Positions 3,286 to 58,619 of a stretch of DNA of 64,000 nucleotides are shown in pieces. How positions within the stretch are numbered: the stretch's first letter is position 1; each line of letters begins with the position of its first letter. A model generated the notes under the pieces. The model saw nothing but the letters and a program-made list of their open reading frames with translations. It was not told the DNA's origin and did no database searches. The translations under genes were made by a program, and so were the position numbers. Origin of the DNA: a virus. The DNA lies in UHGV virus genome UHGV-0076294; one strand, written 5' to 3'.

Positions 3286-3336
3286 TGCTTTTAACAACCA
3301 AACTAAGGCGGTAAATCCGCCTTATTAGGAGAAAAA

Positions 3337-3870: not shown

Positions 3871-3908
3871 TCGCTAAGTCAACTATTATAACAAAAAAAT
3901 AATAAGTT

Positions 3909-3943
3909 TACCTACCTCCTTTACGGAGGTAGGTACTTTTTTT
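3909..3943. terminator. Bidirectional rho-independent terminator
   Basis: TACCTACCTCC/GGAGGTAGGTA stem followed by T7. Sits between convergent genes. Confidence 0.8.
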
Positions 3944-10799: not shown

Positions 10800-11999
10800 T
10801 TATTTCGTACCCGCTTCTGCTTGTACGTCATCACGAGACGTCAGGTTAGCGTTAACGTGCACTGGGGCCTGAACCACGCCACCGTATCTCTTGTGGAGAT
10901 AACCTGTATGTGGGTTATCTGCCGCAATGTGGTTTTGTAGGTTTTGGTTCGCCTGACTGATTGCGTTCGTGTTATTATTAACCTGCTGTTTAAGCGCATC
11001 CAGGTTTTGTTGTAACTGATCGATTTTCTGATCGGTTTCTTGGCCATGTTGCTCTAACGCTTCAACACGCTGAATAACCTGATTCAGTTTTGTATTTAAA
11101 TCGTTGACACTCTTTTGCAGTTGTAACACTAACGAGTTCAGGTTCGCTAACGCTAAAGCCATTTTCTGGTAGTTTTGAGCAACCACGTTAAGTTGGTCGT
11201 TCCACGCTTCCAGAGAGCTGACAACAGCGTCAATACGCTTACCTAAAGCTTCATCTGCTTTCTTCAGTGCATTGATTTCCGTAATCGTTGCGTCGATAGC
11301 AGACTGGACGTCACGAATAAGCGCACGGATTTCAGTTTCTGTTAGTCCATTAACCTGATGGATATCAAGTTGGTGGACGTTACCGGTTGCATTGATGTGC
11401 GCATTTAAAGCGTCCAAGAAGTCGTTTTTCAGACTTTCCAGAATCGCTTTAATGTTCTCTAACTGTACCGCATCGCCAGAACTGATCGCGTCCTTAATGC
11501 CCGCCAATACAGCGATGATATATTCAAAGCCATAAATGTCACCTACGTCTTTATACGTCGGCGCTGACGGGAATGTATCTGGTACGTTACGTAAGTCTTT
11601 AAATGCAACTGTACGGTTATCGAGGTTTAGCTCAGCAATCGCTTGTTCGATAGCCACGATGTTTGCAGACTGTGGGCCACCAACTACCTGCGCAGATACC
11701 GTAATGTCTGTCGGAATCGCTGTGTTAGTGACCACAACCGCCATGACAATCTCGCGGTTTTTAGTCAGCTTTTCATAAGCCGGGTGTGCAAAAATCAACT
11801 CATAATCGGTACCACGTTCGTAGGTTGCATCCGGTCGGTTAGCAACGCGCAAACGAAACGTGTCCGCAAAGAACGGGCCGTCAGGAAAAGCAAAAGCACG
11901 GTTTACTTTACCTGTACCTAACGTAACCTGACGCTCCACAGCGTTAGACGTTAGCGAGCCTGTTAAATCTAAAGGATATTGGTAAACAATGGAGGCCAT
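10800..11999 (-). CDS. Tail fibre protein (short, coiled-coil shaft)
   Basis: N-terminal FPDGPFF...GTDYEL module shared with the three giant fibre genes. Long heptad-like Q/N/L-rich segment. Start set to ATG 11999 (AAGGAGAG RBS). Confidence 0.8.
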   Translation of the reverse strand: MASIVYQYPLDLTGSLTSNAVERQVTLGTGKVNRAFAFPDGPFFADTFRLRVANRPDATYERGTDYELIFAHPAYEKLTKNREIVMAVVVTNTAIPTDITVSAQVVGGPQSANIVAIEQAIAELNLDNRTVAFKDLRNVPDTFPSAPTYKDVGDIYGFEYIIAVLAGIKDAISSGDAVQLENIKAILESLKNDFLDALNAHINATGNVHQLDIHQVNGLTETEIRALIRDVQSAIDATITEINALKKADEALGKRIDAVVSSLEAWNDQLNVVAQNYQKMALALANLNSLVLQLQKSVNDLNTKLNQVIQRVEALEQHGQETDQKIDQLQQNLDALKQQVNNNTNAISQANQNLQNHIAADNPHTGYLHKRYGGVVQAPVHVNANLTSRDDVQAEAGTK

Positions 12000-12039
12000 G
12001 GCCACTCTCCTTTATTCGAGACGTCCTTGTCCCGAGTCA

Positions 12040-17223: not shown

Positions 17224-17256
17224 CGTAAAGACTCCTACTTTTTAAATAAAATGGAT

Positions 17257-17281
17257 ACCCCTCCCCATTACAGGGAGGGGT
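17257..17281 (-). other. Intercistronic GC hairpin
   Basis: CCCCTCCC/GGGAGGGG stem with 7-nt loop between fibre genes. No clear T-run. Confidence 0.4.
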
Positions 17282-17318
17282 TACCTACGGACACACAACT
17301 GCCCGCAGGCAGCCTGTC

Positions 17319-21524: not shown

Positions 21525-21537
21525 CAAAAAAATCTCC

Positions 21538-24500: not shown

Positions 24501-25863
24501 TAGCATTAACATAATCTGTTAACTGCGGCTTCGTTTTTCCGTAAGCTAACGCTGTATCCGTCGCAATACCGTTCAACTCTAACGCACGGATCGGGCCCCA
24601 CGTGTCGCTATGCGGATTGTCCTTACGTGTAACGTGTTCGTGCGCAGGTGCGTTGCGATAGAGCTGTTCTACTAACTGATGGTACTTAACGATTAGCTGA
24701 TAAACGTCGTTACTTACGTCTGCTTCTGGCGCACCAGGTAACGCAAGGAATTGAGCGTAATCGTTTTCAGCCGCCCACCAGTTTAAGTTAACGTTGGTTT
24801 TGTATTTCAGCCACTTCGCAACATCCGTTTTGGTGTAACCTGCTGAGAATTCGTCTGGCGGTGTGTCAACGTTAAAGGTGTAGTCCATAGACTGTTTGTT
24901 GGTCTTCACCTCGATAACGTATACACCGTTACCCGGTTGACGAACAACGCTAAACGTTAACTCGCCTTTTAATTCATCGTCGGTCAAACCGTTGATTAAC
25001 GTATAATCATAATCAGTTGAACCGCTGCCTAACGCAACCGTCAGTCGTAGGCCGATTTTACGTTGTTTTAATTGGAGACGAAGGATACTTGCGCCACCGT
25101 TCGCGTAGCACAACATCCAATCGATTTGTTCGTTCGGATTAATACTCCCCATGTTCGGAAAAATAGCCGGGATACGGTATTTCATCGACAGGGAATATTC
25201 ATTTAACGTGGTGGTTTTGTACGTAACGGAGAAACGACGTTTAGCGGTATTGTAAGTATACCCACCTTTGTTGTCGTACGTTGCGTACTGTTCAGACGTG
25301 ATAACCGTACCATTAGCGCGATGCTCGATATCTAACGTGTTACGCGCAATCGGGTCTACCCGATTCACCACGTTACCTAACGAATCACCTAAGCCTGCAA
25401 TGGCTTGCATTAATTCCAGTTCACCTTTCCAGTTTTCCCAGTCGAACTGAATGTCGACCGGTGGAAAGTAAACATCGCCGATAACGGTATCCCATTGACA
25501 CGCAGACGGGTATTTATCTTTATTGAGTTCGCGTTCTGCGGTAATCTGTTCTTGGGTCGCTTCACCGCAACCTACGGCGTGGTAATCTACCGTGAAATTC
25601 GATTTGTATTTGTCGTTAACAATCCAAATCATCCCGTGCACGAGGTAGGCTGTGCGCAACATACCGGTCTCGTACGGGTGTGTAATAACGTAATCGTCGC
25701 CTAAGGTCAGTATTTTGCCGCCGCTCTTGACCACCAGGGATGTGGTGAAAAAAGGGGCGTGGGCAGGTACCAACATTCGGTACTTCGTACCAATGACGGC
25801 GACCGCTTCACCGGTTATTTTATTCCCCGGTTCTTTGAAGTGTGGGTCTAGGACGACAGCCAT
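21538..25863 (-). CDS. Giant tail fibre protein (1441 aa), first gene of the operon
   Basis: AHAPFF...GDDYVI N-module. FGLGNVANTPDVDLPISVAQQTELDKYSPKVHQH fibre motif. AGGAG RBS. Confidence 0.8.
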   Translation of the reverse strand: MAVVLDPHFKEPGNKITGEAVAVIGTKYRMLVPAHAPFFTTSLVVKSGGKILTLGDDYVITHPYETGMLRTAYLVHGMIWIVNDKYKSNFTVDYHAVGCGEATQEQITAERELNKDKYPSACQWDTVIGDVYFPPVDIQFDWENWKGELELMQAIAGLGDSLGNVVNRVDPIARNTLDIEHRANGTVITSEQYATYDNKGGYTYNTAKRRFSVTYKTTTLNEYSLSMKYRIPAIFPNMGSINPNEQIDWMLCYANGGASILRLQLKQRKIGLRLTVALGSGSTDYDYTLINGLTDDELKGELTFSVVRQPGNGVYVIEVKTNKQSMDYTFNVDTPPDEFSAGYTKTDVAKWLKYKTNVNLNWWAAENDYAQFLALPGAPEADVSNDVYQLIVKYHQLVEQLYRNAPAHEHVTRKDNPHSDTWGPIRALELNGIATDTALAYGKTKPQLTDYVNAKYPTQETLTAQKKLLRTSTTKTADGTIGTLPGFTSFTTEVDPVSMSKYVSPYFSESYVSSGHRYHGELRYTGTKNGFSASFNAVPANLQDIDFIATGIKTASGNEAVGSAIMRFYENSGTNAGKFVEIKAGIWGDTISIEVSLSLNTVGTVPQVRYISQAPDPAIPNSDFSLRFQLKRTGNVFDAVVTVNGKTYSARINFDNMDSALEALENQYHFKTWINNVADAVTISSQNKGNTVTIKKAPDVVDETRLGAQFVVDPKSIKFIGQGSTDVNVGNNPVTLQAGDNQLVLYPDDRGLLWRGKKLLDPTTVAPYLPGNTAGGTGLFYGASTATVELTGSGIKASPFVATFILPVANDVTTLACWQLTDEFGTAENLAATPALIEKLDAEFTGKLVAAKSYINDMQLTSSVTIDKITFGLGNVANTPDVDLPISVAQQTELDKYSPKVHQHPSSVFGVANADTTKRGLIKFGLEVDDATLALDGSVVMAQTSQIEDLENTVGGVDSGARVDIIRFGKSGNDLIDVTVKDNILLTLPASTYFVGGETYDVPLMTVNVTERFTNPQTLIHAGIFVDIVDNRAMYIVHDSYNQAETDTMTRVGKLIVNELSQVDVVELRNVTRLGDFRELKDHVANDNAHIQRSAPRAVLGLSNLTVGAPCWASGLQAVVRGEADWRYVVGGGYKALDGVKYDQLASKWVFDAKGVSDNVHGFIHNMFPAFKNAGMRVSWETESNAKTGTVLETILGCWKNTDGEFMRLSLLITRGYRLTDSNGEYCYAGFGLNFGSGKSVVLGFTPTKRVTPAPWSSLQPVVSFTHTRSATNAITFSARLTLAGTAYTVGVHLSATDKYVSCTAAGGTTQKIPLTDRLTGFNIEPIVNDPYTPIYYGLGGLYEDEVRADVRSAGDSATANKVYGTLLDYISNYSSLNRVRVMELAGASSDPETLNALVATEFNNNLADYAALPIPPYLNKERVMSFIDTSNKVQAVIIRD

Positions 25864-36500: not shown

Positions 36501-36528
36501 ACCACGCTCCGTGAATATGGAGGTGGAC

Positions 36529-39033
36529 ATGTTAAAAGTTGAACGTATTGTACTTAAAGGGTTTACCGGAATGGGATTACACGAAATCGAAACCTTCGAT
36601 TTTACTATCCATTCCCCAACCACCATTATCCTCGGTGGTAACGGCTGCGGTAAGACCAGCTTACTGTCCGTGTTTCTACCTATCGCACCTTCGAAATCCG
36701 AATTCCGTGACGGGGGTTCTTACACCAACATCTGTTTGGTTAACGACCATCGTTACAAATTTAAGGTTGCACGTAAAGGCAACTCACTGGTTTGCGATAT
36801 CGAGAACCTGACGACGGGCACCAAAATCGTCGAACAAGGTAATGCGAAAGTGTATAACTCTCGTGTAGAAGAAATCACGGGCATTACAAAAGAGATTAAA
36901 GAGTTACTGAACGGAGAAGTGCTTTTAACGGATGCAGGAACGGAACTGCGTCGTAAGTGGTTCTACCGTTTAAGTACGTCAGACTTAACTTACGCGTTAG
37001 GTTTTTATCAACGTTTACGAAAAAACCTGACGATGTTAAACGGCGGTATTGAAATCACCAGCCGCAAGATTGCAGAGTTGCGTACCCGCGTGATTGATAA
37101 CGAGGAAGAACGTCAGCAGTTAGCAACACGGTTAAAAGCATTAGAAGTGGATTTACGTGAAGTCAACAAACAGATTGAACAACTGCCTGGTCTGAATCGC
37201 GACGTTACGGTGGCAACGATTCAATCGCTATTGCTTAAAATCGAAGCACCGATTAATGCTATCTTGGAACACCGTGGCGGATTACCTACGGAAGAACGGG
37301 TAGAGGAAGCACGACGCGTTGAAGCCACTGCCCGTGAAGCGGTGGTCTCTGCTGAAACAGAACTGTCCATGCTAAACAAAGATTTGTCTTTGTTGATGGA
37401 CGAGTCTACCCGCCAAGATTACCTGATGCGGAATCACGAAGGGTTAAAGAACACGGTTGCAAAACTGCGTGAGTTATTAAAGCAGTGGGACACCGAACAT
37501 CTTTTCCCTGAACTGTTTGCGGAGACCGTTAACATCGACCAGCTTAAAGCAGCGACGGATGCGCGTGTCTGGGGACAACGTTTAGGAACAACGCTGGACG
37601 CCATTAAATCGACAGAACGGTTGAACGTACTGGAAGAGAAACTGTTGACCTTAGACCAAAACTCATCTGGGTTGCGTGACCGACTACAACGCGTTGAAAA
37701 CGTATTGCAGAACCTCAACCACGAACGGAATCACTATTTGGAAACCGCCGAGGTTGATTGTCCGCAGTGTCAATTTAAATTCCGTCCGGGCGTGCGTCGT
37801 TCTTTGCCTGAATTGGAAGAAGCCATTCGTGGACAAATGGAGCAACGTAATACGTTACAGACTCAGCTTGATTCCGTATTGCGAGACCGTACGGAATTAG
37901 AGTCGGACGTTAATTACATGCGTCAAGTACGAGAAATCGTTTTAACATACTCGAAAGACCCGGTATTGAGTTTGTTCTTTAAACGTCTCCAGGAGCGGAA
38001 TGTCTTTACGGATAACCGCAGTCAATTCGGCAGTTTGTGTGCAGAGTTCGATCGTGAACTTTATTCCGCAATTGAATACCACGAAACGAAACACCGTTTT
38101 GCTAAAGCGGAAAAAGAGTGGGCAAACGCAGTTGCAGCGGTAGGTAACGTTGACGGTGCACTACAGCAGAAAATTGCCTTCCAGCAGGAGCGTTTGGGTA
38201 AGGCGACAGAAACGCTCTCAGAGCGCCGTAGAGAGCACGCAGTTGCTAATGATACCTTTTGTTATCTAAACGAACTTAAAGCCACTGTAGACAATTTTAA
38301 TGCGGTTTTTGAGCGTTTAGAGAACGATGTTAAGGTAACATTAACCAATACGGTGGTCGAAACGTTATTAAACGCCCGAGAAAACAAGTTGGATGCGTTC
38401 ACCACAGCACGGGAACGGTACCGTCAGATGGAAAACGAGCTCAACCAACTTACTGCGTTAGAAAAGGAGTTATCGGATTTACAGGCACAGCAATTCAATA
38501 ACAAACTGATGATTCAAGCGTTCTCGCCCGAGAAAGGGGTATTACGCAAATACTTCTACAACGCTATCGTGAGAATCACAGAATTAATGACGCGCTATAT
38601 CGAACAAGTCTGGACCTACCCTATGCGGGTCATGCCGTGTGACTTAACCGATGGTGACTTAGACTACACGTTCCCAGTGCAGTTAAAAACCCATCCTGAA
38701 CCGGTACCTGACGTGCGGAAAGGGTCGAAAGCACAGCGAGCCATCTTTAATTTGATGTTTCGTTTAACCGCTTACAAAGCCCTGAAACTTCATCAGTATC
38801 CGCTACTGTTGGATGAACCGTCAGAAGGGATGGATGAGGAACACCGAAATAACCTCGTCGGGTTTATTAAAACCCTGGCGAATTCCGGTGAGTTCTCTCA
38901 GTTACTGGTGGTATCTCACGAAGCAGAAATTCATTCAAAACTTAACGAAGCCGCATACTGTGTTATTGAACCTGAAGGCGTAACACTGCCTGCGGTATAC
39001 AACGAGGGAGTAAAAATTGTCTACGCAAACTGA
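36529..39033 (+). CDS. Rad50/SbcC-like (T4 gp46-like) SMC-type ATPase
   Basis: Walker A GGNGCGKTS, long coiled coils with a central CxxC hook (VDCPQCQF), C-terminal LLLDEPSEGMD Walker B. Start at ATG 36529 (GGAGGTGG RBS). Confidence 0.8.
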   Translation: MLKVERIVLKGFTGMGLHEIETFDFTIHSPTTIILGGNGCGKTSLLSVFLPIAPSKSEFRDGGSYTNICLVNDHRYKFKVARKGNSLVCDIENLTTGTKIVEQGNAKVYNSRVEEITGITKEIKELLNGEVLLTDAGTELRRKWFYRLSTSDLTYALGFYQRLRKNLTMLNGGIEITSRKIAELRTRVIDNEEERQQLATRLKALEVDLREVNKQIEQLPGLNRDVTVATIQSLLLKIEAPINAILEHRGGLPTEERVEEARRVEATAREAVVSAETELSMLNKDLSLLMDESTRQDYLMRNHEGLKNTVAKLRELLKQWDTEHLFPELFAETVNIDQLKAATDARVWGQRLGTTLDAIKSTERLNVLEEKLLTLDQNSSGLRDRLQRVENVLQNLNHERNHYLETAEVDCPQCQFKFRPGVRRSLPELEEAIRGQMEQRNTLQTQLDSVLRDRTELESDVNYMRQVREIVLTYSKDPVLSLFFKRLQERNVFTDNRSQFGSLCAEFDRELYSAIEYHETKHRFAKAEKEWANAVAAVGNVDGALQQKIAFQQERLGKATETLSERRREHAVANDTFCYLNELKATVDNFNAVFERLENDVKVTLTNTVVETLLNARENKLDAFTTARERYRQMENELNQLTALEKELSDLQAQQFNNKLMIQAFSPEKGVLRKYFYNAIVRITELMTRYIEQVWTYPMRVMPCDLTDGDLDYTFPVQLKTHPEPVPDVRKGSKAQRAIFNLMFRLTAYKALKLHQYPLLLDEPSEGMDEEHRNNLVGFIKTLANSGEFSQLLVVSHEAEIHSKLNEAAYCVIEPEGVTLPAVYNEGVKIVYAN

Positions 39034-39217
39034 TTGGTGGCGTCAGTTACTAAGCGTTTTAGGGTTTAGCGTCATGGTGCTGGTTGCCATTCTGTACGTG
39101 CTATTTTGTATAACGGCGATTTTATGGGTGGTCTTAGCGTACGCGATTAGGCTCACCTGGGGTTCAATTTGGCACCAACGCGAATGTGAGTGGCGGTGTG
39201 TTGGAGGGAAGTCATGA
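39017..39217 (+). CDS. Small two-TM membrane protein
   Basis: TTG start with GAGGGAG RBS. Hydrophobic segments LLSVLGFSVMVLVAILYVLF and ITAILWVVLAYAI. Confidence 0.45.
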   Translation: MSTQTDWWRQLLSVLGFSVMVLVAILYVLFCITAILWVVLAYAIRLTWGSIWHQRECEWRCVGGKS

Positions 39218-39324
39218 TTGAGGGTATTCTGTTAACACTTGGGTCGTTGTGGATTATTGGGAAATCCCTCAACTGGCTGATTAATAAGTACGGATGGGCT
39301 TTCAAAGGCTCTACGCACAGTTAA
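39214..39324 (+). CDS. 36-aa membrane peptide
   Basis: ATG overlaps the upstream stop. MIEGILLTLGSLWIIGKSLNWLINKYGWAFKGSTHS. Read by hand. Confidence 0.35.
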   Translation: MIEGILLTLGSLWIIGKSLNWLINKYGWAFKGSTHS

Positions 39325-39374
39325 GTTAGGACCCCCTCCTGGGTAACTGGGAGGGTGTTTTACGAGGGAAAACC

Positions 39375-39503
39375 ATGACTGTTGTCAATACTACCAATGC
39401 TGCAATTGGCGCTTTATACAACGCGGAACTAACATGGGGTGCGGGTTTTATTACCGTACTACTTCTTGCCGCAGCCGCTTTTATCATTGGACGTTGGTTT
39501 TAA
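39375..39503 (+). CDS. 42-aa tail-anchored membrane peptide
   Basis: GAGGGAAAACC-ATG. ...GAGFITVLLLAAAAFIIGRWF. Read by hand. Confidence 0.35.
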   Translation: MTVVNTTNAAIGALYNAELTWGAGFITVLLLAAAAFIIGRWF

Positions 39504-39535
39504 TTTCATCTTTTTGCGTCTGTAAGGTCTGATAA

Positions 39536-39979
39536 ATGGAAATTTATTTGTTGAACGCACTTTCTAAAATCGGTGAAGAACAAGCGAAAGATTTACTCGC
39601 ACTTCATTACCGTTACTTAGATCATCAAGCAACGATGCTGAAAATCAAAACCGCTGTACCGAAATTAAACGTGCGTCAACTGATCGAAGGCAACTGTGTT
39701 GTTCTGATTTATATCGACGATGTTGCGGCGGGTTATTGCAGTTACCGTAATCGCAACGGGGTACTCAAAATTCGTTCGCTATACGTGCTGCCCGATTACC
39801 GTCAGCGTGGGGTAATGAAAGAAATCTTCAAAGCGATAGCCGCTGATGAAGCATTCGGTGAAATTGCAATTGGGATGTACACGAAGTGCAAAGAAGCGAA
39901 AGAGTATTTCATTCGTCGTGGCTACAAAGCAACCTATTCTCACGATAAAGAATGGGTGGATTTCAGTAAAACTTTCTAA
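39536..39979 (+). CDS. GNAT-family N-acetyltransferase
   Basis: Acetyl-CoA motif region RSLYVLPDYRQRGVMKEIFKAI, 147 aa. Confidence 0.7.
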   Translation: MEIYLLNALSKIGEEQAKDLLALHYRYLDHQATMLKIKTAVPKLNVRQLIEGNCVVLIYIDDVAAGYCSYRNRNGVLKIRSLYVLPDYRQRGVMKEIFKAIAADEAFGEIAIGMYTKCKEAKEYFIRRGYKATYSHDKEWVDFSKTF

Positions 39980-40045
39980 AACAATAAAGGCTCTCTTGAC
40001 GTTCCTCACTATGAGTGTGAGAATTTTACGTCGGGAGAGCTACTT

Positions 40046-40282
40046 ATGTTAAACAGTTTCGGTGTAGGTGGAATGGATACAAGCATTTGCTGGAAAGAAT
40101 ACGAACGCGCAAAGGCATTTCTCCAGCATCCCAACGTGGGTAAGATCGGTCAGGTGTGCTTTGGTAAACCTGCACTGACAGCCTGTATTCAAGGTGCGTT
40201 AGGGACGCTGCCACCTGAATCACCTTTCGAGCCTAAGGAGAATCCAGATGTTACCAGGAACCCAAACCCCGTATCTATTTAG
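40046..40282 (+). CDS. Hypothetical protein
   Basis: 78-aa ORF, GGGAGAG RBS. Confidence 0.55.
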   Translation: MLNSFGVGGMDTSICWKEYERAKAFLQHPNVGKIGQVCFGKPALTACIQGALGTLPPESPFEPKENPDVTRNPNPVSI

Positions 40283-40622
40283 TGAACCACTGGATAACAG
40301 CGACATCTTACAAATCTGCTATCAGTGTCACGAAATCGGTGGTAGTGAACTTACGCGGGTTAATAAACTGCTGTGGCTGATTCCAGAAATCGAATTACCG
40401 TTTGTTAAGCCTAGCTTGTGGCGTCGTGGTGCGTGTCGCGAAGCGTATATGCTGTCAAAATTTAACATTAATCTGGAGAAGGTCTGGGAGAAGATGAACG
40501 ACACCCAAACCCGAGAACAGATTACTCACACGCTGGAATTGCACCTTGCCATGAAACGCCTCGGTCTCGAACACGAAGGACTGGAGTCCGTTATCAGTCA
40601 ATGGGTGAAAAGGAATCGTTAA
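40248..40622 (+). CDS. Hypothetical protein
   Basis: 124-aa ORF, AAGGAG RBS. Confidence 0.65.
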   Translation: MLPGTQTPYLFSEPLDNSDILQICYQCHEIGGSELTRVNKLLWLIPEIELPFVKPSLWRRGACREAYMLSKFNINLEKVWEKMNDTQTREQITHTLELHLAMKRLGLEHEGLESVISQWVKRNR

Positions 40623-40695
40623 TGTCTAAAACGTATATAGCGATTTTGGTTGAGTTGGCGATTGGTGGTACGCGGTTTATCCCTGTGCATCAATT

Positions 40696-41220
40696 ATGCT
40701 TACCTCACTCGGTAAGACCGTTATGCTAACGATACTTCCAGAATCGGATATTGACAACGACCTGTTTAACGCCCCTGAGCGCTTCAAGGTCGTTACGATA
40801 AATTGTGTAGGGGCAATGGGTCGGGGTATCGCTTTAGCGTGCAGAGAACGCTATCCTGGTCTTTATCAGGACTACCGAGAACGTTGCTTCGCTAACGAGA
40901 TACGAATAGGGAATGTGTACGTTTATCCCGAGGAAAACTGCATTCTCTTACCAACTAAAACACATTGGAAACTGAAATCCCAGGTTTCTTATGTTATCGC
41001 GGGTATCACCGCGTTGGCAGATGCCGCAGAAAACTTAGAGGGTGGGGTGGCTTTACCGCCGTTAGGGATGGCCACCGGTTGGTTGACAAAAGCTGAACGT
41101 CAACAAATCTTTTTGTTTATCGAAAAGAAACTCGTACCAAGGAGACAACATTACCGTTTCTATTTACCCGAACCGCTTTACCAAGAAGCAAAACCTTTAA
41201 TTCCAAACCTTTTTAAATAG
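40696..41220 (+). CDS. Macrodomain protein, DarG/TARG1-like class
   Basis: VTINCVGAMGRGIALACRERYPGLYQDYRERC...LLPTKTHWKLKS...VALPPLG is colinear with the DarG macrodomain pattern NCVGVMGKGIALQFK..YP...FPTKKHWR..S...PPLG. Start codon uncertain (40696 or 40723). Confidence 0.7.
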   Translation: MLTSLGKTVMLTILPESDIDNDLFNAPERFKVVTINCVGAMGRGIALACRERYPGLYQDYRERCFANEIRIGNVYVYPEENCILLPTKTHWKLKSQVSYVIAGITALADAAENLEGGVALPPLGMATGWLTKAERQQIFLFIEKKLVPRRQHYRFYLPEPLYQEAKPLIPNLFK

Positions 41221-41235
41221 ATATTATCATTAGGG
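41219..41235 (+). promoter_or_regulatory. Candidate phage promoter motif (AGATATTATCATTAGGG)
   Basis: Member of the AGATATTAT family, about 100 nt upstream of the transglycosylase gene. Confidence 0.3.
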
Positions 41236-41320
41236 CACACAACAAAGGAGTACCAGCTGTCCGCGCCGTGATTTCGTTCTACGGAATACGGAAATGTATA
41301 AATCCAACTGGAGAACTAGT

Positions 41321-42007
41321 ATGTTTCGTATCTTCTTTCTTTTACTGGTAACACTTTTCGCGTTTAACGCATACGCATCCAAATCCGCACCCAGTGCCAA
41401 ACACCATCGTGAATTCGAAATGATTCAAGACCGTTTCGAACGGGTAAAACCGTTGATTGTGGAAATCTCTCGAAAGCAGGGTGTTGATCCTAATTTAATG
41501 ACCACGCTAATCTATCGAGAGTCACGGTTTAATCCGAAGGCGTATAATCGAACGTCTAAAGCGCACAGTCTGGTTCAGATGCTACCGAGCACAAAGCGCA
41601 ATTTGCTAAAACTCTACGGTGCCGAAATCGGACTTAGTCGCAATGCGGATTTGTACAATCCTCGTAATGCGGTGCTATTGGCTTCCGTCTACGTTAAACA
41701 TTTAGAAAAGGGGTTAACTAAACGACTCAAACGCAAGCCCACTATTGCAGAAATAGCATTGGCTTATCACTGGGGTGAAAGCGGTGCACACGCCAGGATT
41801 AAAAGCAAGTCTCGGGCAGCACAACGAGAAATGGCGAGCTTTATGAAAGATGCAACGTTCTACAGTGCGAAAATCAACAAGCCTGTAGCATCTCGTCAGC
41901 TTGCGTTTGCGAAGAAACCAGAACGCCAGATTCAGTTAGCAGAAGTTAACCGAATTTGGGATACGATAAACACCAGTTTTCCATTTAAACAAGGAGTCAC
42001 CCTTTGA
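41321..42007 (+). CDS. Exported lytic transglycosylase (SLT domain)
   Basis: YRESRFNPKAYNRTSKAHSLVQMLPST (E-S..F.P.A.....A.GL.Q pattern). Leader MFRIFFLLLVTLFAFNAYA/SK. Start at ATG 41321 (GGAGA RBS). Confidence 0.75.
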   Translation: MFRIFFLLLVTLFAFNAYASKSAPSAKHHREFEMIQDRFERVKPLIVEISRKQGVDPNLMTTLIYRESRFNPKAYNRTSKAHSLVQMLPSTKRNLLKLYGAEIGLSRNADLYNPRNAVLLASVYVKHLEKGLTKRLKRKPTIAEIALAYHWGESGAHARIKSKSRAAQREMASFMKDATFYSAKINKPVASRQLAFAKKPERQIQLAEVNRIWDTINTSFPFKQGVTL

Positions 42008-42513
42008 GCATCGTTGTAACCGATTGGTATAAAGGTATCACTAAGGCTACCCAAATTACTGCCCAGGACGTGTACAGTATCGTTCGTAGCAGTAACGAAG
42101 ACCAGATAAAGTCCGACGAAGACTTTGCAACGCGTCATGAGTTTTACGATGCCCTTAAAACGGCTTTCGGTGACGACGAAGAAGAAGGTTTAGAGTTTGA
42201 CTGGAACGTCAACCTTGCCTTATTGTGGATTTGCGGATTGCGTCCGAGTGTGAGAGACACGGAGCAAGGAAAAGTTCTGTTGTGGCATCACACCGGTAAA
42301 TACAATCCGAACCAGGTCTTTAAAGAAGCGTATATGGAAGCCACTGTAGAGTTACAGAATCTGCTGTTGGGTGAGAACACCTACTGTCAACGCAGCTTCC
42401 TGACGATTCTGGAGAAACTGGCGTCTACACACAAAATCTGGCGTCAGGCAGATGCCCCTGAGCACATCTTCGTTCTGGAATTTGCTGTGATTCCAAACCA
42501 GCCGTTCTTTTAA
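42004..42513 (+). CDS. Hypothetical protein
   Basis: TTG start, AAGGAG RBS 7 nt upstream. Confidence 0.6.
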   Translation: MSIVVTDWYKGITKATQITAQDVYSIVRSSNEDQIKSDEDFATRHEFYDALKTAFGDDEEEGLEFDWNVNLALLWICGLRPSVRDTEQGKVLLWHHTGKYNPNQVFKEAYMEATVELQNLLLGENTYCQRSFLTILEKLASTHKIWRQADAPEHIFVLEFAVIPNQPFF

Positions 42514-42519
42514 TACTTG

Positions 42520-42555
42520 CCCCTAATCCAATCGGATTAGGGGTACTTTTATTTA
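42520..42555 (+). terminator. Rho-independent terminator
   Basis: CCCCTAATCC-AATC-GGATTAGGGG plus T-rich tail. Confidence 0.8.
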
Positions 42556-42576
42556 TTCCCCTAAAGGAGCAAAGGT

Positions 42577-43056
42577 ATGTTGAAGTTTATCTGGCGTTAC
42601 CCAACCCGCTTTTGGTTCGTGGTATTAGAGGTAATCACCGTTTTACTGTTAGTGACGTTCGTAAACGCCTCTACGAAACAAATGGTGATTTTCTGTGTAT
42701 TCGACGCTATACCGTTGTGGGTATTTGCAAAGATTATTAAGTTTTACATGATAAGCTGGGCGAACTACACCTGTCCATTTAAACCCAGAGAAATCATGAA
42801 CTGGTTGATGTATATCGAAGACCGTTTACCCGCTCAGTCTAAAACGTTAGGCTGGCAATCGATGTTGGATATTGCGCTAGAAACAAACGCAAAATTCCCT
42901 GGGTCAAAGAATCCTTATTTGCTGCTGGCTGTTATTGTTGCCCAGCAGAAACGTGCAGGCGAACGTTGGTTACCGAAAGAAGCGAAAGAGTATATTCGTA
43001 AACATCCGAAGGCTTTCTATTCCGTAGGTCAATGGCGTAACCTCCCACTCTTTTAA
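42577..43056 (+). CDS. Membrane protein
   Basis: Two N-terminal hydrophobic helices (FWFVVLEVITVLLLVTF, MVIFCVFDAIPLWVFA). AAAGGAG RBS. Confidence 0.7.
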   Translation: MLKFIWRYPTRFWFVVLEVITVLLLVTFVNASTKQMVIFCVFDAIPLWVFAKIIKFYMISWANYTCPFKPREIMNWLMYIEDRLPAQSKTLGWQSMLDIALETNAKFPGSKNPYLLLAVIVAQQKRAGERWLPKEAKEYIRKHPKAFYSVGQWRNLPLF

Positions 43057-43109
43057 CTTTTTTACAAAACCCTTAGTTGATTTGAATAAACCTAAAGAGG
43101 ACTATTAAA

Positions 43110-56134: not shown

Positions 56135-57631
56135 ATGGCAGGCCCAACTAAGCAAGTTATCGGTGAAGTAATTCGTCCTCGTTTTAACGTTTATACCATC
56201 ATGGACCACGCCTTAGGCAACTACGAAAGAGGCGAAGATGGTTTATACTACCTTAACGGTGGTTTTGCCCACATCATGGGTTTCGCGGGTCGTGGTAACA
56301 CCTTCAAATCCACACTGTTGGATTTCTGTATCTTCCAAATCCTACAACGCTATAAAGCAGAGTGGGGTTCGAAATACGATACCGAAGTGTCTGCTGCCCT
56401 CGATCGCTTAGAGACCGGTTATATTTCTGCCATGCACGCCAACGGTATTGACGATGGAACTTCGGTACTGGAACTTATTCACGAAGGTCGTTATAACCTC
56501 GTTGGTTCTGACGTGATGCCAGGGGAACAATATTACAGTGACTATATTCGTGATGAAGTGGAAAAACGCTTCAAGCAGTATATGTCTGGTAAAACGCGTG
56601 TAACGCCGTTCCTCGACCCGGTTCGTCGTAAGCAAAAAGAAATCCTTGACCCGTGGCTGTATTCTATCGACTCCCTGTCGGAGTGGCACTCGTCTTCTCT
56701 GGAAGACAAGCACGCTAAAACGGATATCGGTGATTCCGATCAGAACATCCTCAACGCCCACGACGCCTTACAGAAATCGAACATGATGAGCCGTTGGCCG
56801 TCTGCGTTTGCCCGTGGTGGTTTCTACATGGGCTTTGTTGCACAGATGGCCGATGACTCCGGTAAGGCGATGGCAGGCGGTCGTCAAGGACAGAAAGCAA
56901 ATGCGAAACTGCTGGACGATGCGAACGACGATCTCAAATTCGCAGGGATTCCTCGTCGTCAGTTAAGCTTCCTGACTAACTCGTTTATTGTTGCGACAAA
57001 ATCAGGCGAGCTGAAAAAAGACCAGAGTTATAACGCCCAGACCGGTGTTAACGAAGAACTTTACCCAACCGCACGTTCAAAAGCCATGAACGCGTCGGTT
57101 AACGACCTGAAAGTTATCACCTTTACGCAGTACCGTGCTAAAGGCGGTCACACAGGCGTGAAGTTCCAGATGATCTTCTCGCAAGAGATGGGTCTACTGT
57201 ATCACCTGAGCCTGTGGCACTACCTGAGTGATACCCTGAAAAAATCCGAATTTGGATTTACATCCAGCGGTAGCGGTGGTTCCATTAAAGAACTCCAGAT
57301 TCTGCCTGGTGTTAAATTCCAGCGTACGACGATTCGCGACATGATCGACGATAACCCGAAACTGCGTCGGGCATTAGAAATCACGGCCGCGATTGCGTAC
57401 ATGCAGAACAACTACCATCGTTTAGAGGTTAAATACCACCTCACGATGGAAGAAATCTACAAACTCATTGATGAAAAATGGGATTGGAATGAGATTCTGG
57501 AGAACACCGTAGAATACTGGATGTTTAAAGACCAAGAAACGAAAGGTGGTAAACGTACGTTAACTGCCCGTACGATTCTGGGTATGGCCGTGGACGGCCT
57601 GGAACCGAAGTTCCTCACCAAAAAGAAATAA
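56135..57631 (+). CDS. RecA-superfamily recombinase, UvsX-like
   Basis: GFAGRGNTFKSTLLD vs T4 UvsX ILAGPSKSFKSNFGL. YDTE vs YDSE. LYSIDSLSE vs VFIDSLGN. Later KFQMIFSQEMGLLYHLSL vs KFFIDVKFDGGIDPYSGLL (from memory). Confidence 0.55.
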   Translation: MAGPTKQVIGEVIRPRFNVYTIMDHALGNYERGEDGLYYLNGGFAHIMGFAGRGNTFKSTLLDFCIFQILQRYKAEWGSKYDTEVSAALDRLETGYISAMHANGIDDGTSVLELIHEGRYNLVGSDVMPGEQYYSDYIRDEVEKRFKQYMSGKTRVTPFLDPVRRKQKEILDPWLYSIDSLSEWHSSSLEDKHAKTDIGDSDQNILNAHDALQKSNMMSRWPSAFARGGFYMGFVAQMADDSGKAMAGGRQGQKANAKLLDDANDDLKFAGIPRRQLSFLTNSFIVATKSGELKKDQSYNAQTGVNEELYPTARSKAMNASVNDLKVITFTQYRAKGGHTGVKFQMIFSQEMGLLYHLSLWHYLSDTLKKSEFGFTSSGSGGSIKELQILPGVKFQRTTIRDMIDDNPKLRRALEITAAIAYMQNNYHRLEVKYHLTMEEIYKLIDEKWDWNEILENTVEYWMFKDQETKGGKRTLTARTILGMAVDGLEPKFLTKKK

Positions 57632-57637
57632 AGTCGT

Positions 57638-57662
57638 TAGGGTAGGGTAATCCCCTACCCTA
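57638..57662 (+). other. Intercistronic hairpin
   Basis: TAGGGTAGGG ... CCCTACCCTA stem directly before the next RBS, no T-run. Confidence 0.5.
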
Positions 57663-57676
57663 GCTAAGGAGTCGTT

Positions 57677-57976
57677 ATGCGTTATCAAACGGAGATTGTG
57701 GAGCGCTTAAGCGAAGGTTTAGCCAGCGTCAGTCTGGAAACAGCAGCGGCATTTCGTGAGACTTTCGCTACTTTCTTTCCCGATCGTGAATCTTTTTGTT
57801 TAAAGGTCGGTGAATATTATTCCAAGTTACTCGAACACTACGGTTACCCGCCGGTGAAATTCGACGTACCTGAAAACACCGACGACATCAGTTATTGGAT
57901 TGAAACCCTCGAAGCAGGGACACTTTCCAACTTGCGTAAGGCGGTAGAAAATGAGACTCGATCCAGCGCGGCGTAA
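57677..57976 (+). CDS. Hypothetical protein
   Basis: 99-aa ORF, AAGGAG RBS. Confidence 0.65.
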   Translation: MRYQTEIVERLSEGLASVSLETAAAFRETFATFFPDRESFCLKVGEYYSKLLEHYGYPPVKFDVPENTDDISYWIETLEAGTLSNLRKAVENETRSSAA

Positions 57977-58619
57977 AAAAGCAGAAGCTTACGCCTTACA
58001 AATCTTAAACCTGGTTGACCCCTCTGGGATTAATGCAGAGGCAGCAAAGAAAGCTTTTGCTCGAATGACAGACGAACAGTTTAATCGTCTTCGTGAAGGG
58101 CTACCGATTTACAACCCGGTTGGCAGCAAAGTTAAAATAGACCACATGCGAAACGTTGAGCTATGTCGTGTTTTAGGTTTGAACCTGGAACAGCGGTTGT
58201 GGTTAACTGAGCCGAAAACGGGTGTTTTCCATCGTACCCGCTACCCACATCTGGTATTGCGCTTGCCTGCGCGTCGTCAAACGCAGATGCAAGAAAAGAA
58301 AATGGCAGTAGCGAAGAACGACAAAGTTCGTGATAAACTCTCCGGTCAAGTTGTTGGTCCTTCTAAAGCATCTGGTGTATCTTTCCCAGAAGCGTACATC
58401 ATGTACTCCGATGGTCACGACTGGACACTGAAAGAGTTTCTGTGGGCGCGTGGGGGTAACGAAGCTTTACAACGTGCGTTCTATCAATCGTTACGTCAAA
58501 CCGGTAAGGGACGTATTGACCTGCCGGGAGCAGAACGTACCAGTTCGAAAGCAACACGTACCTGGTCTGCGTATCTGAAAGCGATGCACATTGGTAACAA
58601 CATAGGCCATCCGTCATGA
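57951..58619 (+). CDS. Protein resembling the C-terminal ~190 residues of bacterial RNA polymerase beta (candidate split-RNAP fragment or mimic)
   Basis: Colinear anchors with the E. coli RpoB C-terminus recalled from memory (see finding). No catalytic GNKG-type motif. Confidence 0.4.
   Translation: MRLDPARRKKAEAYALQILNLVDPSGINAEAAKKAFARMTDEQFNRLREGLPIYNPVGSKVKIDHMRNVELCRVLGLNLEQRLWLTEPKTGVFHRTRYPHLVLRLPARRQTQMQEKKMAVAKNDKVRDKLSGQVVGPSKASGVSFPEAYIMYSDGHDWTLKEFLWARGGNEALQRAFYQSLRQTGKGRIDLPGAERTSSKATRTWSAYLKAMHIGNNIGHPS

What the first reader, a model, noticed from the sequence alone, without database searches (positions are those of the whole stretch)
40696..41220. DarG/TARG1-class macrodomain: candidate eraser of defence-associated DNA ADP-ribosylation
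Seen: NCVGAMGRGIALACRERYPGLYQDYRERC ... LLPTKTHWKLKS ... VALPPLG is colinear with the DarG antitoxin macrodomain pattern (NCVGVMGKGIALQFK..YP ... FPTKKHWR..S ... PPLG).

Established: DarT toxins ADP-ribosylate thymidine in ssDNA and provide anti-phage defence. The DarG macrodomain removes the modification.

Inference: the phage carries its own DarG-like hydrolase to neutralise DarT-type defence or other ADP-ribosylating systems. A GNAT acetyltransferase and two unknown ORFs sit just upstream, so 39.5-41.2 kb may be a counter-defence islet.
Basis: partly seen in the sequence, partly recalled or inferred. Interest (0 to 1): 0.55.

Follow-up and report, generated by a model that had tools for sequence, protein, structure and literature searches.

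The report
Jumbo-phage AdfM anti-DarT2 macrodomain

Summary
The ORF at 40696..41220 (+) is real and is a DarG/TARG1-class macrodomain. Its best solved relatives by sequence and by predicted fold are the DarG macrodomains of M. tuberculosis and T. aquaticus. MacroD/YmdB-type enzymes are not among the top matches. The catalytic Asn and Lys are intact. It lacks DarG's C-terminal DarT-binding half, and no DarT gene is in the window, so it is an orphan "antitoxin".

The window comes from an undeposited ~225 kb jumbo phage, collinear gene-for-gene with Erwinia phage Asesino and Salmonella phage SPN3US. The ORF is 62% identical to Asesino gp217 and 34% to PhiKZ gp104. Both were published in 2026 as AdfM. 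PhiKZ AdfM removes DarT2-made ADP-ribose from ssDNA, is imported into the phage nucleus and protects against DarTG2.

The "counter-defence islet" add-on is not supported. The upstream GNAT and small ORFs are linked to the macrodomain only within this clade.

Caveats:
- No activity has been measured for any member of this clade.
- This allele alone carries Asn→Thr at an ADP-ribose-contacting loop residue.
- The true start is probably M10 (40723).

Verdict: new member of a known kind, low interest.

The parts
40723..41220 (+). AdfM-type orphan DarG2-like macrodomain CDS, probable true extent (165 aa, start M10, stop TAG 41218-41220)
   Evidence: Homologues are 161-168 aa and align from this Met. 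The upstream sequence contains GGTAAGA, similar to the TAAGG(A) motifs upstream of neighbouring genes. AF2 model: pLDDT 94.6, pTM 0.90. Foldseek top hits are DarG macrodomains.
40696..40722 (+). Possible 9-codon N-terminal extension (MLTSLGKTV) if the upstream in-frame ATG is used; probably not translated
   Evidence: This is the longest ORF. It was called as 174 aa in several public assemblies. It is absent from 89%- and 77%-identical relatives and from Asesino and SPN3US. No SD-like sequence lies upstream.
40801..40833 (+). Loop 1, NCVGAMGRGIA. The first codon (40801-40803, AAT) encodes the catalytic/substrate-positioning Asn, equivalent to Taq DarG N22 and PhiKZ AdfM N23
   Evidence: Alignment to DarG and PhiKZ. 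Asn is present in 35 of 36 family members; V, G, A, M, G, G and A are invariant. The N22A and N23A mutants lose activity (PMC5179494, PMC13309987).
40951..40968 (+). PTKTHW motif. Lys at 40957-40959 is equivalent to catalytic Taq DarG K80, PhiKZ K78 and TARG1 K84. Trp is equivalent to Taq W83, proposed to stack on the thymine
   Evidence: T78 and K79 are invariant in 36 of 36 sequences. Site table. K80A inactivates Taq DarG (PMC5179494).
41056..41085 (+). Loop 2 (phosphate-binding), PPLGMATGWL. It contains a private Asn→Thr change (ACC, 41074-41076) at the position of Taq DarG N120, an ADP-ribose hydrogen-bonding residue
   Evidence: 34 of 36 family members have Asn there, as do all 13 other members read from the 90% cluster. 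Asesino and Kodama have His. N120 is listed among the ADPr contacts in PMC5179494. Codon read.
39536..39979 (+). Context only: GNAT acetyltransferase upstream, not shown to belong to the AdfM function
   Evidence: Pfam Acetyltransf_1 at 6.6e-8; phrog_3810. Orthologues at 39-40% identity sit in the same position in SPN3US, Stratton and Asesino. It is not linked to AdfM in other clades.
40046..40622 (+). Context only: two overlapping small ORFs of unknown function (78 aa, 40046..40282; 124 aa, 40248..40622) between the GNAT and AdfM
   Evidence: phrog_28329 and phrog_11720. Orthologues at 40-49% identity occur in the relatives, but with extra genes interleaved. The GNAT-to-AdfM spacer is 743 nt here against 1434-1862 nt.

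Best explanation
The gene encodes an AdfM (anti-DarT factor, macrodomain). This is a stand-alone DarG2-type macrodomain ADP-ribosylglycohydrolase carried by a nucleus-forming jumbo phage of the Erskinevirus/Seoulvirus group that infects enterobacteria.

Proposed mechanism:
1. When a host DarTG2 system is triggered, DarT2 ADP-ribosylates the second thymine of TNTC motifs in single-stranded phage DNA.
2. The phage enzyme binds the ADP-ribose between loop 1 (NCVGAMGRGIA) and loop 2 (PPLGMATGWL).
3. The catalytic Lys of PTKTHW, positioned with the loop-1 Asn, cleaves the thymine-ribose bond and restores unmodified DNA.
4. Genome replication and packaging can then proceed.

Unlike DarG, it has no DarT-binding domain, so it acts only enzymatically. 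By analogy with Asesino and PhiKZ AdfM it is probably imported into the phage nucleus.

Shown here: family, fold, catalytic residues, orphan architecture, orthology and synteny.

Inferred from published work on homologues: substrate, DarTG2 counter-defence and nuclear localisation.
For: Sequence: best PDB relatives are the DarG macrodomains, 5m3i at 1.8e-19 and 5m31 at 4.3e-17. NCBIfam DarG scores 7e-30 / 104 bits over the macro half only. PADLOC DarG scores 3.9e-30.

Fold: the AF2 model has pLDDT 94.6. Foldseek ranks 5m3e, 5m31 and 5m3i first (E 2e-13 to 5e-12, TMt 0.81-0.83), then Thermosipho DarTG, then TARG1.

Residues: of 15 Taq DarG ADPr-contact or mutagenised positions, 9 are identical, including N22, T79, K80, H82 and W83. 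Four carry changes that are conservative or also seen in Mtb DarG or active PhiKZ AdfM (N8D, K29R, V31I, G119A) (contacts from PMC5179494).

Orthology: 62% identity over 164 aa without gaps to Asesino gp217, YP_009290835.1. 34% identity, E=3e-25, to PhiKZ gp104. Both are named AdfM in PMC13309987. That paper shows for PhiKZ in-vitro removal of T-ADPr, rescue of DarT2 toxicity and 3-6 log loss of plating of ΔadfM phage on DarTG2 hosts. It shows nuclear localisation for Asesino, PhiKZ and PhiPA3 AdfM.

Genome context: the window is collinear with Asesino, Stratton and SPN3US from the SMC gene to about 48 kb. It carries a chimallivirus-type vRNAP beta-subunit homologue and a UvsX-like gene. Asesino is an experimentally nucleus-forming chimallivirus (PMC11724907).

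Orphan status: there is no DarT2-like sequence (best E=1.8) and no second macrodomain in the window.

Target availability: TNTC motifs are abundant and not depleted, 2281 against 2136±42 expected, so the genome is a full DarT2 target.
Against: No member of the Erskinevirus/Seoulvirus clade has had its enzymatic activity or anti-DarTG2 phenotype measured. Only localisation was shown for Asesino.

This particular allele has Thr instead of the near-universal Asn at the Taq N120 ADPr-contact position. All close relatives read have Asn. This could weaken binding.

The clade also has Trp where DarG and PhiKZ have the second Gly of loop 2, and Ala at the Q34 position.

Chimallin and PicA are not within the 64 kb window, so nucleus formation and import are inferred from relatives.

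The identity of a DarTG2 system in the natural host is unknown.
Confidence: 0.8

Rival explanations
1. It is a generic housekeeping macrodomain: an ADP-ribose-1''-phosphate phosphatase or MacroD/YmdB-type O-acetyl-ADP-ribose deacetylase. Many GenBank and PHROG annotations imply this ('phosphatase', 'Appr-1-p processing protein'). Under this reading it acts on small-molecule NAD metabolites rather than on DNA.
For: phrog_335 is labelled 'phosphatase'. Orthologues are annotated 'putative Appr-1-p processing protein' or 'phosphatase'. There are weak PDB sequence hits to Poa1p, an ADP-ribose 1''-phosphate phosphatase, at E 0.05-0.13. A GNAT acetyltransferase lies 743 nt upstream.
Against: The DarG-specific models score about 85 bits higher than the generic Pfam Macro model, which is below its threshold. 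The fold search ranks DarG first, then TARG1. Poa1p appears only at rank 21 and beyond, and no MacroD/YmdB entry is named in the 50 rows listed. The catalytic Lys specific to the TARG1/DarG class is invariant. The annotations are legacy domain labels, not experiments. The homologue PhiKZ gp104 acts on ADP-ribosylated DNA (PMC13309987).
Confidence: 0.04
2. It is an active ADP-ribosylhydrolase whose relevant substrate in this clade is not DarT2-modified thymine. Candidates are ADP-ribosylated protein (as for TARG1 and SCO6735), ADP-ribosylated RNA from another defence toxin, or modifications written by a phage-encoded ADP-ribosyltransferase.
For: The ALC1-like class includes enzymes with dual DNA and protein activity: TARG1 and SCO6735 (PMC9411070). 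The clade has its own loop-2 signature, Gly-Trp instead of Gly-Gly, invariant in 36 of 36 sequences. It also has a 20-30 residue C-terminal extension relative to PhiKZ. No activity data exist for this clade.
Against: The nearest relatives by every measure are DarG2 macrodomains, which PMC13309987 describes as acting exclusively on DNA. The Trp proposed to stack on thymine (Taq W83) is retained. The Asesino orthologue localises to the DNA-containing phage nucleus. No ART-like or DarT-like gene was detected in the window, although only DarT2 was searched for explicitly.
Confidence: 0.1
3. This particular allele is attenuated or inactive. The private Asn→Thr substitution at an ADP-ribose-contacting loop-2 residue would make it a weakened variant. 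This would be analogous to the naturally occurring active and inactive alleles of the anti-DarT factors AdfA (RB69/T4) and AdfB (ICP1).
For: The position equals Taq DarG N120, listed among the ADPr hydrogen-bonding residues. The neighbouring G119E mutation markedly reduces activity (PMC5179494). Asn is present in 34 of 36 family members and in all 13 other members read from the 90% cluster. Single-residue on/off alleles are documented for AdfB, G62/D62 (PMC11481870).
Against: Thr keeps a hydrogen-bonding side chain. Asesino and Kodama carry His at this position, and TARG1 is not conserved there, so the site tolerates change. The paper does not say whether N120 contacts ADPr through its side chain or its backbone. 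The ORF is otherwise intact, and the allele occurs on 4 independently assembled contigs.
Confidence: 0.06
4. It is the antitoxin of a complete DarTG toxin-antitoxin module carried by the phage itself.
For: The top profile hit is the NCBIfam 'antitoxin_DarG' equivalog.
Against: The score of 104 bits is far below the equivalog cut-off of 250, and only the N-terminal macro half of the profile (7-154 of 338) is matched. The protein is 165-174 aa and has no DarT-binding domain. The flanking genes are unknown small ORFs and a transglycosylase. No DarT2-like sequence occurs anywhere in the 64 kb window.
Confidence: 0.01

Closest known systems
AdfM of chimalliviruses (PhiKZ gp104, PhiPA3 gp108, Goslar gp83, Asesino gp217; Morgan et al., Cell Rep 2026, PMC13309987)
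   Same: Stand-alone macrodomain of about 160 aa, DarG2-like. Same catalytic Asn and Lys. Encoded by a jumbo phage with chimallivirus-type genes. 62% identical and syntenic to Asesino gp217, and 34% identical to PhiKZ gp104. DarG-profile score comparable to the validated enzyme: 104 bits here, 117 for Asesino, 138 for PhiKZ.
   Different: This lineage is not in the deposited phage collection and is annotated only as 'hypothetical protein' in public assemblies. Loop 2 reads G-W instead of G-G, as in the whole Erskinevirus/Seoulvirus clade, and this allele has N→T at the Taq-N120 position. The genomic location differs from PhiKZ and RAY, where it lies next to other genes; in RAY it sits between UvsX and DprA/vRNAP. 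Activity is untested in this clade.
DarG2 antitoxin macrodomain (T. aquaticus 5M31/5M3E, M. tuberculosis 5M3I; Jankevicius et al. 2016, PMC5179494)
   Same: Closest solved structures by sequence (31% identity, E to 1.8e-19) and by fold (TM about 0.8). Same catalytic Lys in PTK(K/T)HW, the same Asn in loop 1 and the same PPLG loop 2.
   Different: No C-terminal DarT-binding domain and no adjacent DarT. Encoded by a virus to defeat the toxin rather than by the cell to restrain it. Q34→A and N120→T at ADPr contacts.
T4 Tk.4, also named AdfM (HIDEN-SEQ preprint, 10.1101/2025.11.20.689424)
   Same: Orphan phage macrodomain required for growth on DarTG2-expressing E. coli. Same proposed mechanism.
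   Different: Only marginal sequence similarity to the window protein: BLASTP E=0.001 over 43 residues. It scores 30 bits on the DarG profile against 104 here. It is a separate, more diverged lineage in a non-nucleus-forming phage.
AdfN (T4 gene 30.3), orphan DarG1-like NADAR (Johannesman et al. 2025, PMC11825919)
   Same: Same strategy: a phage carries the enzymatic half of the antitoxin and erases DNA ADP-ribosylation.
   Different: Unrelated fold (NADAR). Acts on guanine-ADPr from DarT1, not thymine-ADPr from DarT2.
AdfA (RB69/T4) and AdfB (ICP1 gp145)
   Same: Phage anti-DarT factors.
   Different: Direct stoichiometric inhibitors of DarT, not hydrolases. No macrodomain.
Human TARG1 / Streptomyces SCO6735 (ALC1-like macrodomain class)
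   Same: Same macrodomain subclass. TARG1 shares the catalytic Lys and can reverse DarT-made T-ADPr.
   Different: 17-20% identity. TARG1 and SCO6735 also act on proteins. TARG1's Asp125 partner is Gly here. SCO6735 uses Gln instead of Lys.

Membership tests
AdfM (phage orphan DarG2-like macrodomain, chimallivirus lineage) | Significant homology, and orthology, to a published AdfM | tested here: met
   62% identity over 164 aa, E=2e-76, to Asesino gp217 (YP_009290835.1) at the syntenic position. 34% identity, E=3e-25, to PhiKZ gp104.
AdfM (phage orphan DarG2-like macrodomain, chimallivirus lineage) | Stand-alone macrodomain of about 150-170 aa, with no DarT-binding domain and no DarT partner | tested here: met
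   165-174 aa. The DarG profile is matched only at 7-154 of 338. No DarT2-like sequence in the window.
AdfM (phage orphan DarG2-like macrodomain, chimallivirus lineage) | Catalytic Asn (PhiKZ N23) and Lys (PhiKZ K78) present | tested here: met
   N27 (40801-40803) and K79 (40957-40959) align to them. The alignment reproduces the paper's PhiKZ numbering.
AdfM (phage orphan DarG2-like macrodomain, chimallivirus lineage) | Encoded by a chimallivirus (nucleus-forming jumbo phage) | tested here: inconclusive
   Collinear with Asesino, a proven nucleus former (PMC11724907), and with SPN3US. The window has a vRNAP beta-subunit homologue (RAY gp154, E=3e-32) and a UvsX-like gene. Chimallin and PicA themselves are not in the 64 kb window.
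AdfM (phage orphan DarG2-like macrodomain, chimallivirus lineage) | Hydrolyses thymine-linked ADP-ribose from DarT2-modified ssDNA | not testable with these tools
   Shown only for PhiKZ gp104 (PMC13309987). This allele carries N→T at an ADPr contact.
AdfM (phage orphan DarG2-like macrodomain, chimallivirus lineage) | Protects the phage from DarTG2; PicA-dependent import into the phage nucleus | not testable with these tools
   Genetics were done for PhiKZ and PhiPA3. Localisation was shown for Asesino, PhiKZ and PhiPA3.
DarG2-type / ALC1-like (TARG1-DarG) macrodomain class | Macrodomain fold closest to DarG/TARG1 rather than MacroD, PARG or viral Mac1 types | tested here: met
   Foldseek ranks 1-4 are DarG structures (E 2e-13 to 3e-9) and ranks 6-12 are TARG1. 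Viral nsP3 and Poa1p rank lower, and no MacroD/YmdB entry is named in the 50 rows listed.
DarG2-type / ALC1-like (TARG1-DarG) macrodomain class | Catalytic Lys equivalent to TARG1 K84 / DarG K80 | tested here: met
   K79 is invariant in 36 of 36 homologues and aligned to K80.
DarG antitoxin of a DarTG type II TA system (NCBIfam NF048014 equivalog) | Full-length two-domain protein reaching the equivalog cut-off | tested here: not met
   104.4 bits against a cut-off of 250. The C-terminal half of the profile is unmatched.
DarG antitoxin of a DarTG type II TA system (NCBIfam NF048014 equivalog) | Adjacent DarT (DUF4433) toxin gene | tested here: not met
   The neighbours are small unknown ORFs and an SLT transglycosylase. 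tblastn of P. aeruginosa DarT2 against the window gives a best E of 1.8. Single-sequence test, so limited sensitivity.
MacroD/YmdB-type deacetylase or Appr-1''-p phosphatase | Best match to the generic Macro/MacroD models and folds | tested here: not met
   Pfam Macro at 19.3 bits is below its gathering score of 22. Poa1p appears only at rank 21 and beyond, and no MacroD/YmdB entry is named in the 50 rows listed.
Multi-gene counter-defence islet (GNAT + orf78 + orf124 + macrodomain) | Co-occurrence of the genes with the macrodomain across independent genomic contexts, or homology of the neighbours to known anti-defence proteins | tested here: not met
   The neighbours have homologues only in Asesino, Stratton and SPN3US, as part of a longer collinear block. 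They are absent within ±3.5 kb of the macrodomain in PhiKZ, RAY, Kodama and SU10. Kodama's adjacent GNAT is unrelated. PhiKZ gp103 and RAY gp151 are not GNATs by Pfam. No PADLOC or NCBIfam functional hit.

The most novel reading that the evidence does not exclude
The Erskinevirus/Seoulvirus-clade macrodomain has never been assayed. It carries an invariant loop-2 Gly-Trp instead of Gly-Gly and a clade-specific C-terminal extension. It might have a substrate range different from PhiKZ AdfM. Alternatively, the private Asn→Thr allele in this window might be a naturally attenuated or specificity-shifted variant, like the on/off alleles of AdfA and AdfB. That would point to an ongoing arms race with a particular enterobacterial DarT variant.
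Probability: 0.12. Interest if true: 0.35.

Novelty: new member of a known kind. Interest (0 to 1): 0.15.

Why it matters
Practically, it allows a confident functional name (AdfM, anti-DarTG2 DNA ADP-ribosylglycohydrolase) for a gene that public records label 'hypothetical protein' or, misleadingly, 'phosphatase / Appr-1-p processing protein'. This lineage of ~225 kb jumbo phages turns up in E. coli, Salmonella and Shigella assemblies.

It extends the published AdfM family to an undeposited enterobacterial chimallivirus lineage. It also flags one naturally occurring active-site-loop variant that could be used to probe the role of the conserved loop-2 Asn.

It opens no new question. The concept of orphan antitoxin-like erasers of DNA ADP-ribosylation in phages is already demonstrated experimentally: AdfN in 2025, T4 AdfM in 2025 and chimallivirus AdfM in 2026.

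Tried and rejected
- Megablast of 39000-43100 against deposited phages found nothing. A 24.5 kb query found at most about 76% identity, and only in structural genes. No deposited close relative could therefore be used, and I relied on protein-level orthologues.
- I tested whether the GNAT and macrodomain form a conserved pair. Kodama has a GNAT overlapping its macrodomain gene, but it is unrelated to the window's GNAT. The genes in the equivalent upstream position in PhiKZ (gp103) and RAY (gp151) are not GNATs by Pfam. Rejected.
- I looked for a phage-borne DarT with one P. aeruginosa DarT2 sequence and found none. Sensitivity is limited, and only 64 kb of the ~225 kb genome was covered.
- I looked for TNTC (DarT2 motif) avoidance and found none. 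The motif is slightly over-represented.
- The homologue search for the 124-aa neighbour returned only 5 close relatives. That is too shallow for a useful structure prediction, so I did not pursue its function.
- The sigma-70 promoter and terminator scan around the gene gave fewer sites than the shuffles and is not applicable to chimallivirus RNAPs.
- I checked three papers on chimallivirus and nucleus-forming phages (PMC10299810, PMC11724907, PMC12625630) for an explicit mention of SPN3US or Seoulvirus and found none in the main texts. Chimallivirus status of the window therefore rests on Asesino synteny and marker genes.
- The 42-aa ORF 40601..40729 overlapping the start has no homologue in the relatives. 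I treated it as non-coding.
Full report
**1. Observation**

The ORF is present at exactly the stated coordinates: 40696..41220, + strand, 174 aa, ATG start. It contains the quoted motifs:
- NCVGAMGRGIA at 40801-40833
- PTKTHW at 40951-40968
- PPLGMATGWL at 41056-41085

The similarity to DarG is not a pattern-matching accident.
- phmmer against all PDB sequences puts the M. tuberculosis DarG macrodomain (5m3i, E=1.8e-19) and the T. aquaticus one (5m31/5m3e, E=4.3e-17) first. The Thermosipho DarTG fusion comes next (7omu, 1.9e-10). Nothing else is significant.
- The NCBIfam DarG equivalog model gives E=7e-30 and the PADLOC DarG model 3.9e-30.
- The generic Pfam Macro model reaches only 19.3 bits, below its gathering score.

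Homologues are 161-168 aa and align from residue 10/11. Only the second in-frame ATG (40723) has an SD-like TAAG upstream, like neighbouring genes. The real protein is therefore probably 165 aa, 40723..41220. Residue numbers below use that start.

**2. What the protein is**

An AlphaFold2 model built on 36 homologues is confident: pLDDT 94.6, pTM 0.90. Foldseek against the PDB gives this order:
- Ranks 1-3: the three DarG macrodomain entries (E 2.4e-13 to 4.5e-12, target TM 0.81-0.83, 31% identity)
- Rank 4: Thermosipho DarTG
- Rank 5: TTHA0132
- Ranks 6-12: human TARG1
- Lower: alphavirus and coronavirus macrodomains and Poa1p. No MacroD/YmdB entry is named in the 50 rows listed.

Jankevicius et al. 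2016 (PMC5179494) list the ADP-ribose-contacting residues of Taq DarG. They also report the mutants that impair it: K80A inactive, and N22A, K29E and G119E strongly reduced. I mapped these 15 positions.
- Identical in the window protein (9): L9, T20, N22, T79, K80, H82, W83, G117, G121.
- Changes that are conservative or also found in Mtb DarG or in the experimentally active PhiKZ enzyme (4): N8D, K29R, V31I, G119A.
- Different (2): Q34A, which is also not conserved in PhiKZ, and N120T.

The same alignment reproduces the published PhiKZ active-site numbering (N23, K78), which validates it. T78 and K79 are invariant, and N27 is present in 35 of 36 family members.

The protein is not a DarG antitoxin in the strict sense. 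Only profile positions 7-154 of 338 are matched, and the score of 104 bits is far below the equivalog cut-off of 250. There is no C-terminal DarT-binding domain. The flanking genes are small unknown ORFs and an SLT transglycosylase. A P. aeruginosa DarT2 query finds nothing in the 64 kb window, best E=1.8. There is no second macrodomain in the window.

**3. What genome it sits in**

No deposited phage is close at the DNA level. There is no megablast hit for the local 4 kb. Identity to Asesino and phiEaH2 is at most about 76%, and only in structural genes.

At the protein level the whole region is collinear, gene for gene, with three phages:
- Erwinia phage Asesino (Erskinevirus)
- Erwinia phage Stratton (Erskinevirus)
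- Salmonella phage SPN3US (Seoulvirus)

The collinear block runs from the 840-aa SMC/SbcC-like gene (36511..39033) to about 48 kb. Other genes fit a phiKZ-related jumbo phage:
- Three giant paralogous virion structural proteins
- An RNase H-like gene
- A UvsX-like recombinase
- A homologue of RAY's 'vRNAP beta subunit 2' (57951..58619, E=3e-32)

Asesino has been shown experimentally to form a phage nucleus (PMC11724907).

The exact 174-aa protein occurs on four assembled contigs. Its 90% cluster has 328 member sequences, including ~222-226 kb contigs labelled E. coli or Salmonella. Every named member I read is called 'hypothetical protein'. A Shigella-labelled 199 kb contig carries the neighbouring 124-aa gene. 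The host is therefore most likely an enterobacterium, and the genome is about 225 kb.

**4. What is known**

Morgan et al., Cell Rep 2026 (PMC13309987) identified PhiKZ gp104 as 'AdfM' (anti-DarT factor macro) and found homologues in about half of chimalliviruses.

For PhiKZ AdfM they showed that:
- it removes ADP-ribose from a DarT2-modified TNTC oligonucleotide, and N23A is impaired
- it rescues DarT2 toxicity in E. coli
- deletion mutants of PhiKZ and PhiPA3 lose 3-6 logs of titre on hosts expressing DarTG2
- phage DNA becomes ADP-ribosylated without it
- the main block is at genome packaging
- the protein is imported into the phage nucleus by PicA

They explicitly list Asesino gp217 (YP_009290835.1) as an AdfM and show that it localises to the Asesino nucleus.

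My hit H30 is that very protein. The window protein is 62% identical to it over 164 residues without a gap (E=2e-76), at the syntenic position. It is 34% identical to PhiKZ gp104 (E=3e-25).

Independently, a 2025 preprint (10.1101/2025.11.20.689424) named T4 Tk.4 'AdfM' after showing it is required on DarTG2 hosts. That protein is only marginally similar to ours (E=0.001) and scores 30 bits on the DarG profile. On the same profile the window protein scores 104, Asesino 117 and PhiKZ 138. The window protein therefore belongs to the chimallivirus lineage.

Other anti-DarT factors work differently:
- AdfA and AdfB bind DarT directly (PMC11481870).
- AdfN is a NADAR enzyme specific for DarT1's guanine adducts (PMC11825919).

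**5. Mechanism (most likely)**

DarT2 ADP-ribosylates the second T of TNTC in single-stranded phage DNA. The phage genome offers plenty of such sites and shows no avoidance: 2281 observed against 2136±42 expected.

The macrodomain clamps the ADP-ribose between loops 1 and 2. The PTK Lys, positioned with the loop-1 Asn, cleaves the base-ribose bond. The Trp of PTKTHW probably stacks on the thymine, as proposed for Taq W83.

Without a DarT-binding domain, neutralisation is purely catalytic. By analogy with Asesino, the enzyme probably works inside the phage nucleus.

Shown here: class, fold, residues, orphan architecture and orthology. Inferred from homologues: substrate, phenotype and localisation. 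Confidence is about 0.8.

**6. Caveats and rivals**

(a) No enzyme of the Erskinevirus/Seoulvirus clade has been assayed.

(b) The clade has an invariant Gly-Trp where DarG and PhiKZ have Gly-Gly in loop 2.

(c) This allele alone has Thr (ACC, 41074-41076) at the Taq-N120 contact position.
- 34 of 36 family members have Asn, as do all 13 other cluster members read.
- Asesino and Kodama have His there, so the site is not immutable.
- An attenuated allele cannot be excluded. Single-residue on/off alleles are known for AdfB.

(d) The legacy 'phosphatase / Appr-1-p processing' label is not supported by the profile or fold ranking.

(e) A complete phage-borne DarTG module is effectively excluded for the window.

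**7. The 'counter-defence islet'**

The GNAT (39536..39979), orf78 (40046..40282) and orf124 (40248..40622) have orthologues in the same order in Asesino, Stratton and SPN3US. There they are part of a much longer collinear block.

They do not accompany the macrodomain in other contexts:
- In PhiKZ, gp103 and gp105 are unrelated to them.
- In RAY, the macrodomain gene lies between UvsX and DprA/vRNAP.
- In Kodama, an unrelated GNAT overlaps the macrodomain gene.
- In the podovirus SU10, none of them is present.

None of the neighbours matches a known family of defined function beyond 'GNAT'.

The GNAT-to-AdfM spacer does vary in gene content: 743 nt here against 1434-1862 nt in relatives. That is typical of accessory regions but is not evidence of function. 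I regard the islet idea as unsupported rather than refuted.

**8. Verdict**

The function has since been demonstrated for direct homologues, and the family has a name. This is a new, unannotated member of a known kind, in an undeposited enterobacterial jumbo-phage lineage. Interest is low (0.15). The only mildly unusual feature is the private loop-2 Asn→Thr substitution.

Noticed in passing
window 41074-41076: A private Asn→Thr (ACC) substitution in loop 2 of the macrodomain, at the position of Taq DarG N120, an ADP-ribose contact. All 13 other members read from the 90% cluster and 34 of 36 family homologues have Asn. The exact allele is on 4 public contigs.
   Followed up: yes
window 39980-40722, versus L001 4561-5994, L002 4157-6018 and L003 4258-5994: The stretch between the GNAT and AdfM varies in gene content among relatives: 743 nt here against 1434-1862 nt. 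SPN3US and Asesino each have two extra small genes that the window lacks, so this is a local hot spot of gene flux inside an otherwise collinear block.
   Followed up: partly
window 42577-43056 (+): A 159-aa ORF with two hydrophobic, TM-like stretches (phrog_20030, E=1.4e-9). It has no homologue at this position in Asesino, Stratton or SPN3US, which carry a different short gene there.
   Followed up: no
window 40601-40729 (+): A 42-aa ORF that overlaps the end of orf124 and the start of the macrodomain ORF. It has no homologue in the relatives and is probably not a gene. SPN3US and Stratton do annotate a different small gene overlapping their macrodomain start.
   Followed up: partly
window 12040-25863 (-): Three consecutive giant ORFs (1727, 1402 and 1441 aa) that are mutually paralogous virion structural proteins, with cross-hits among phrog_7449, 8078, 7557 and 2163. 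A fourth, shorter paralogue lies at 10800-12005.
   Followed up: no
window 5127-6449 (-): A 440-aa radical SAM domain protein (phrog_1802, E=8e-115) in a jumbo-phage genome. Function unknown.
   Followed up: no
window 36511-39033 (+): An 840-aa SMC/SbcC-like ATPase (phrog_77, 'SbcC-like subunit of palindrome specific endonuclease', E=5e-91), conserved at 57-69% identity in SPN3US, Stratton and Asesino. The small ORF at 39017-39217 overlaps its 3' end, as in the relatives.
   Followed up: no
window 56135-58619, versus L006 (RAY) 1577-5505: In Erwinia phage RAY the macrodomain gene sits between the UvsX-like gene and DprA/vRNAP-beta. In the window UvsX is followed directly by the vRNAP-beta homologue, after a 320-nt gap, and the macrodomain is about 15 kb upstream. 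AdfM therefore occupies different loci in different chimallivirus clades.
   Followed up: partly
whole window: The DarT2 target motif TNTC, counted on both strands, is not depleted and is slightly enriched: 2281 observed against 2136±42 under a first-order Markov model.
   Followed up: yes
public data: clusters of P0001 and P0059: This phage lineage is absent from the deposited-phage collection. It appears as ~199-226 kb contigs in assemblies labelled E. coli, Salmonella enterica and Shigella flexneri and in metagenomes. The clusters have 328 and 378 member sequences, and the named members listed are all 'hypothetical protein'.
   Followed up: partly
phage collection: H66-H71, H74, H81, H85, H89, H94: DarG-like orphan macrodomains also occur outside chimalliviruses: E. 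coli Kuravirus SU10-like podoviruses (which score 144 bits on the DarG profile, higher than PhiKZ), T4-like Morganella and Proteus phages, a Pseudanabaena cyanophage, and Streptomyces and Rhodococcus phages. These would act without a phage nucleus. I did not check whether any has been tested.
   Followed up: no
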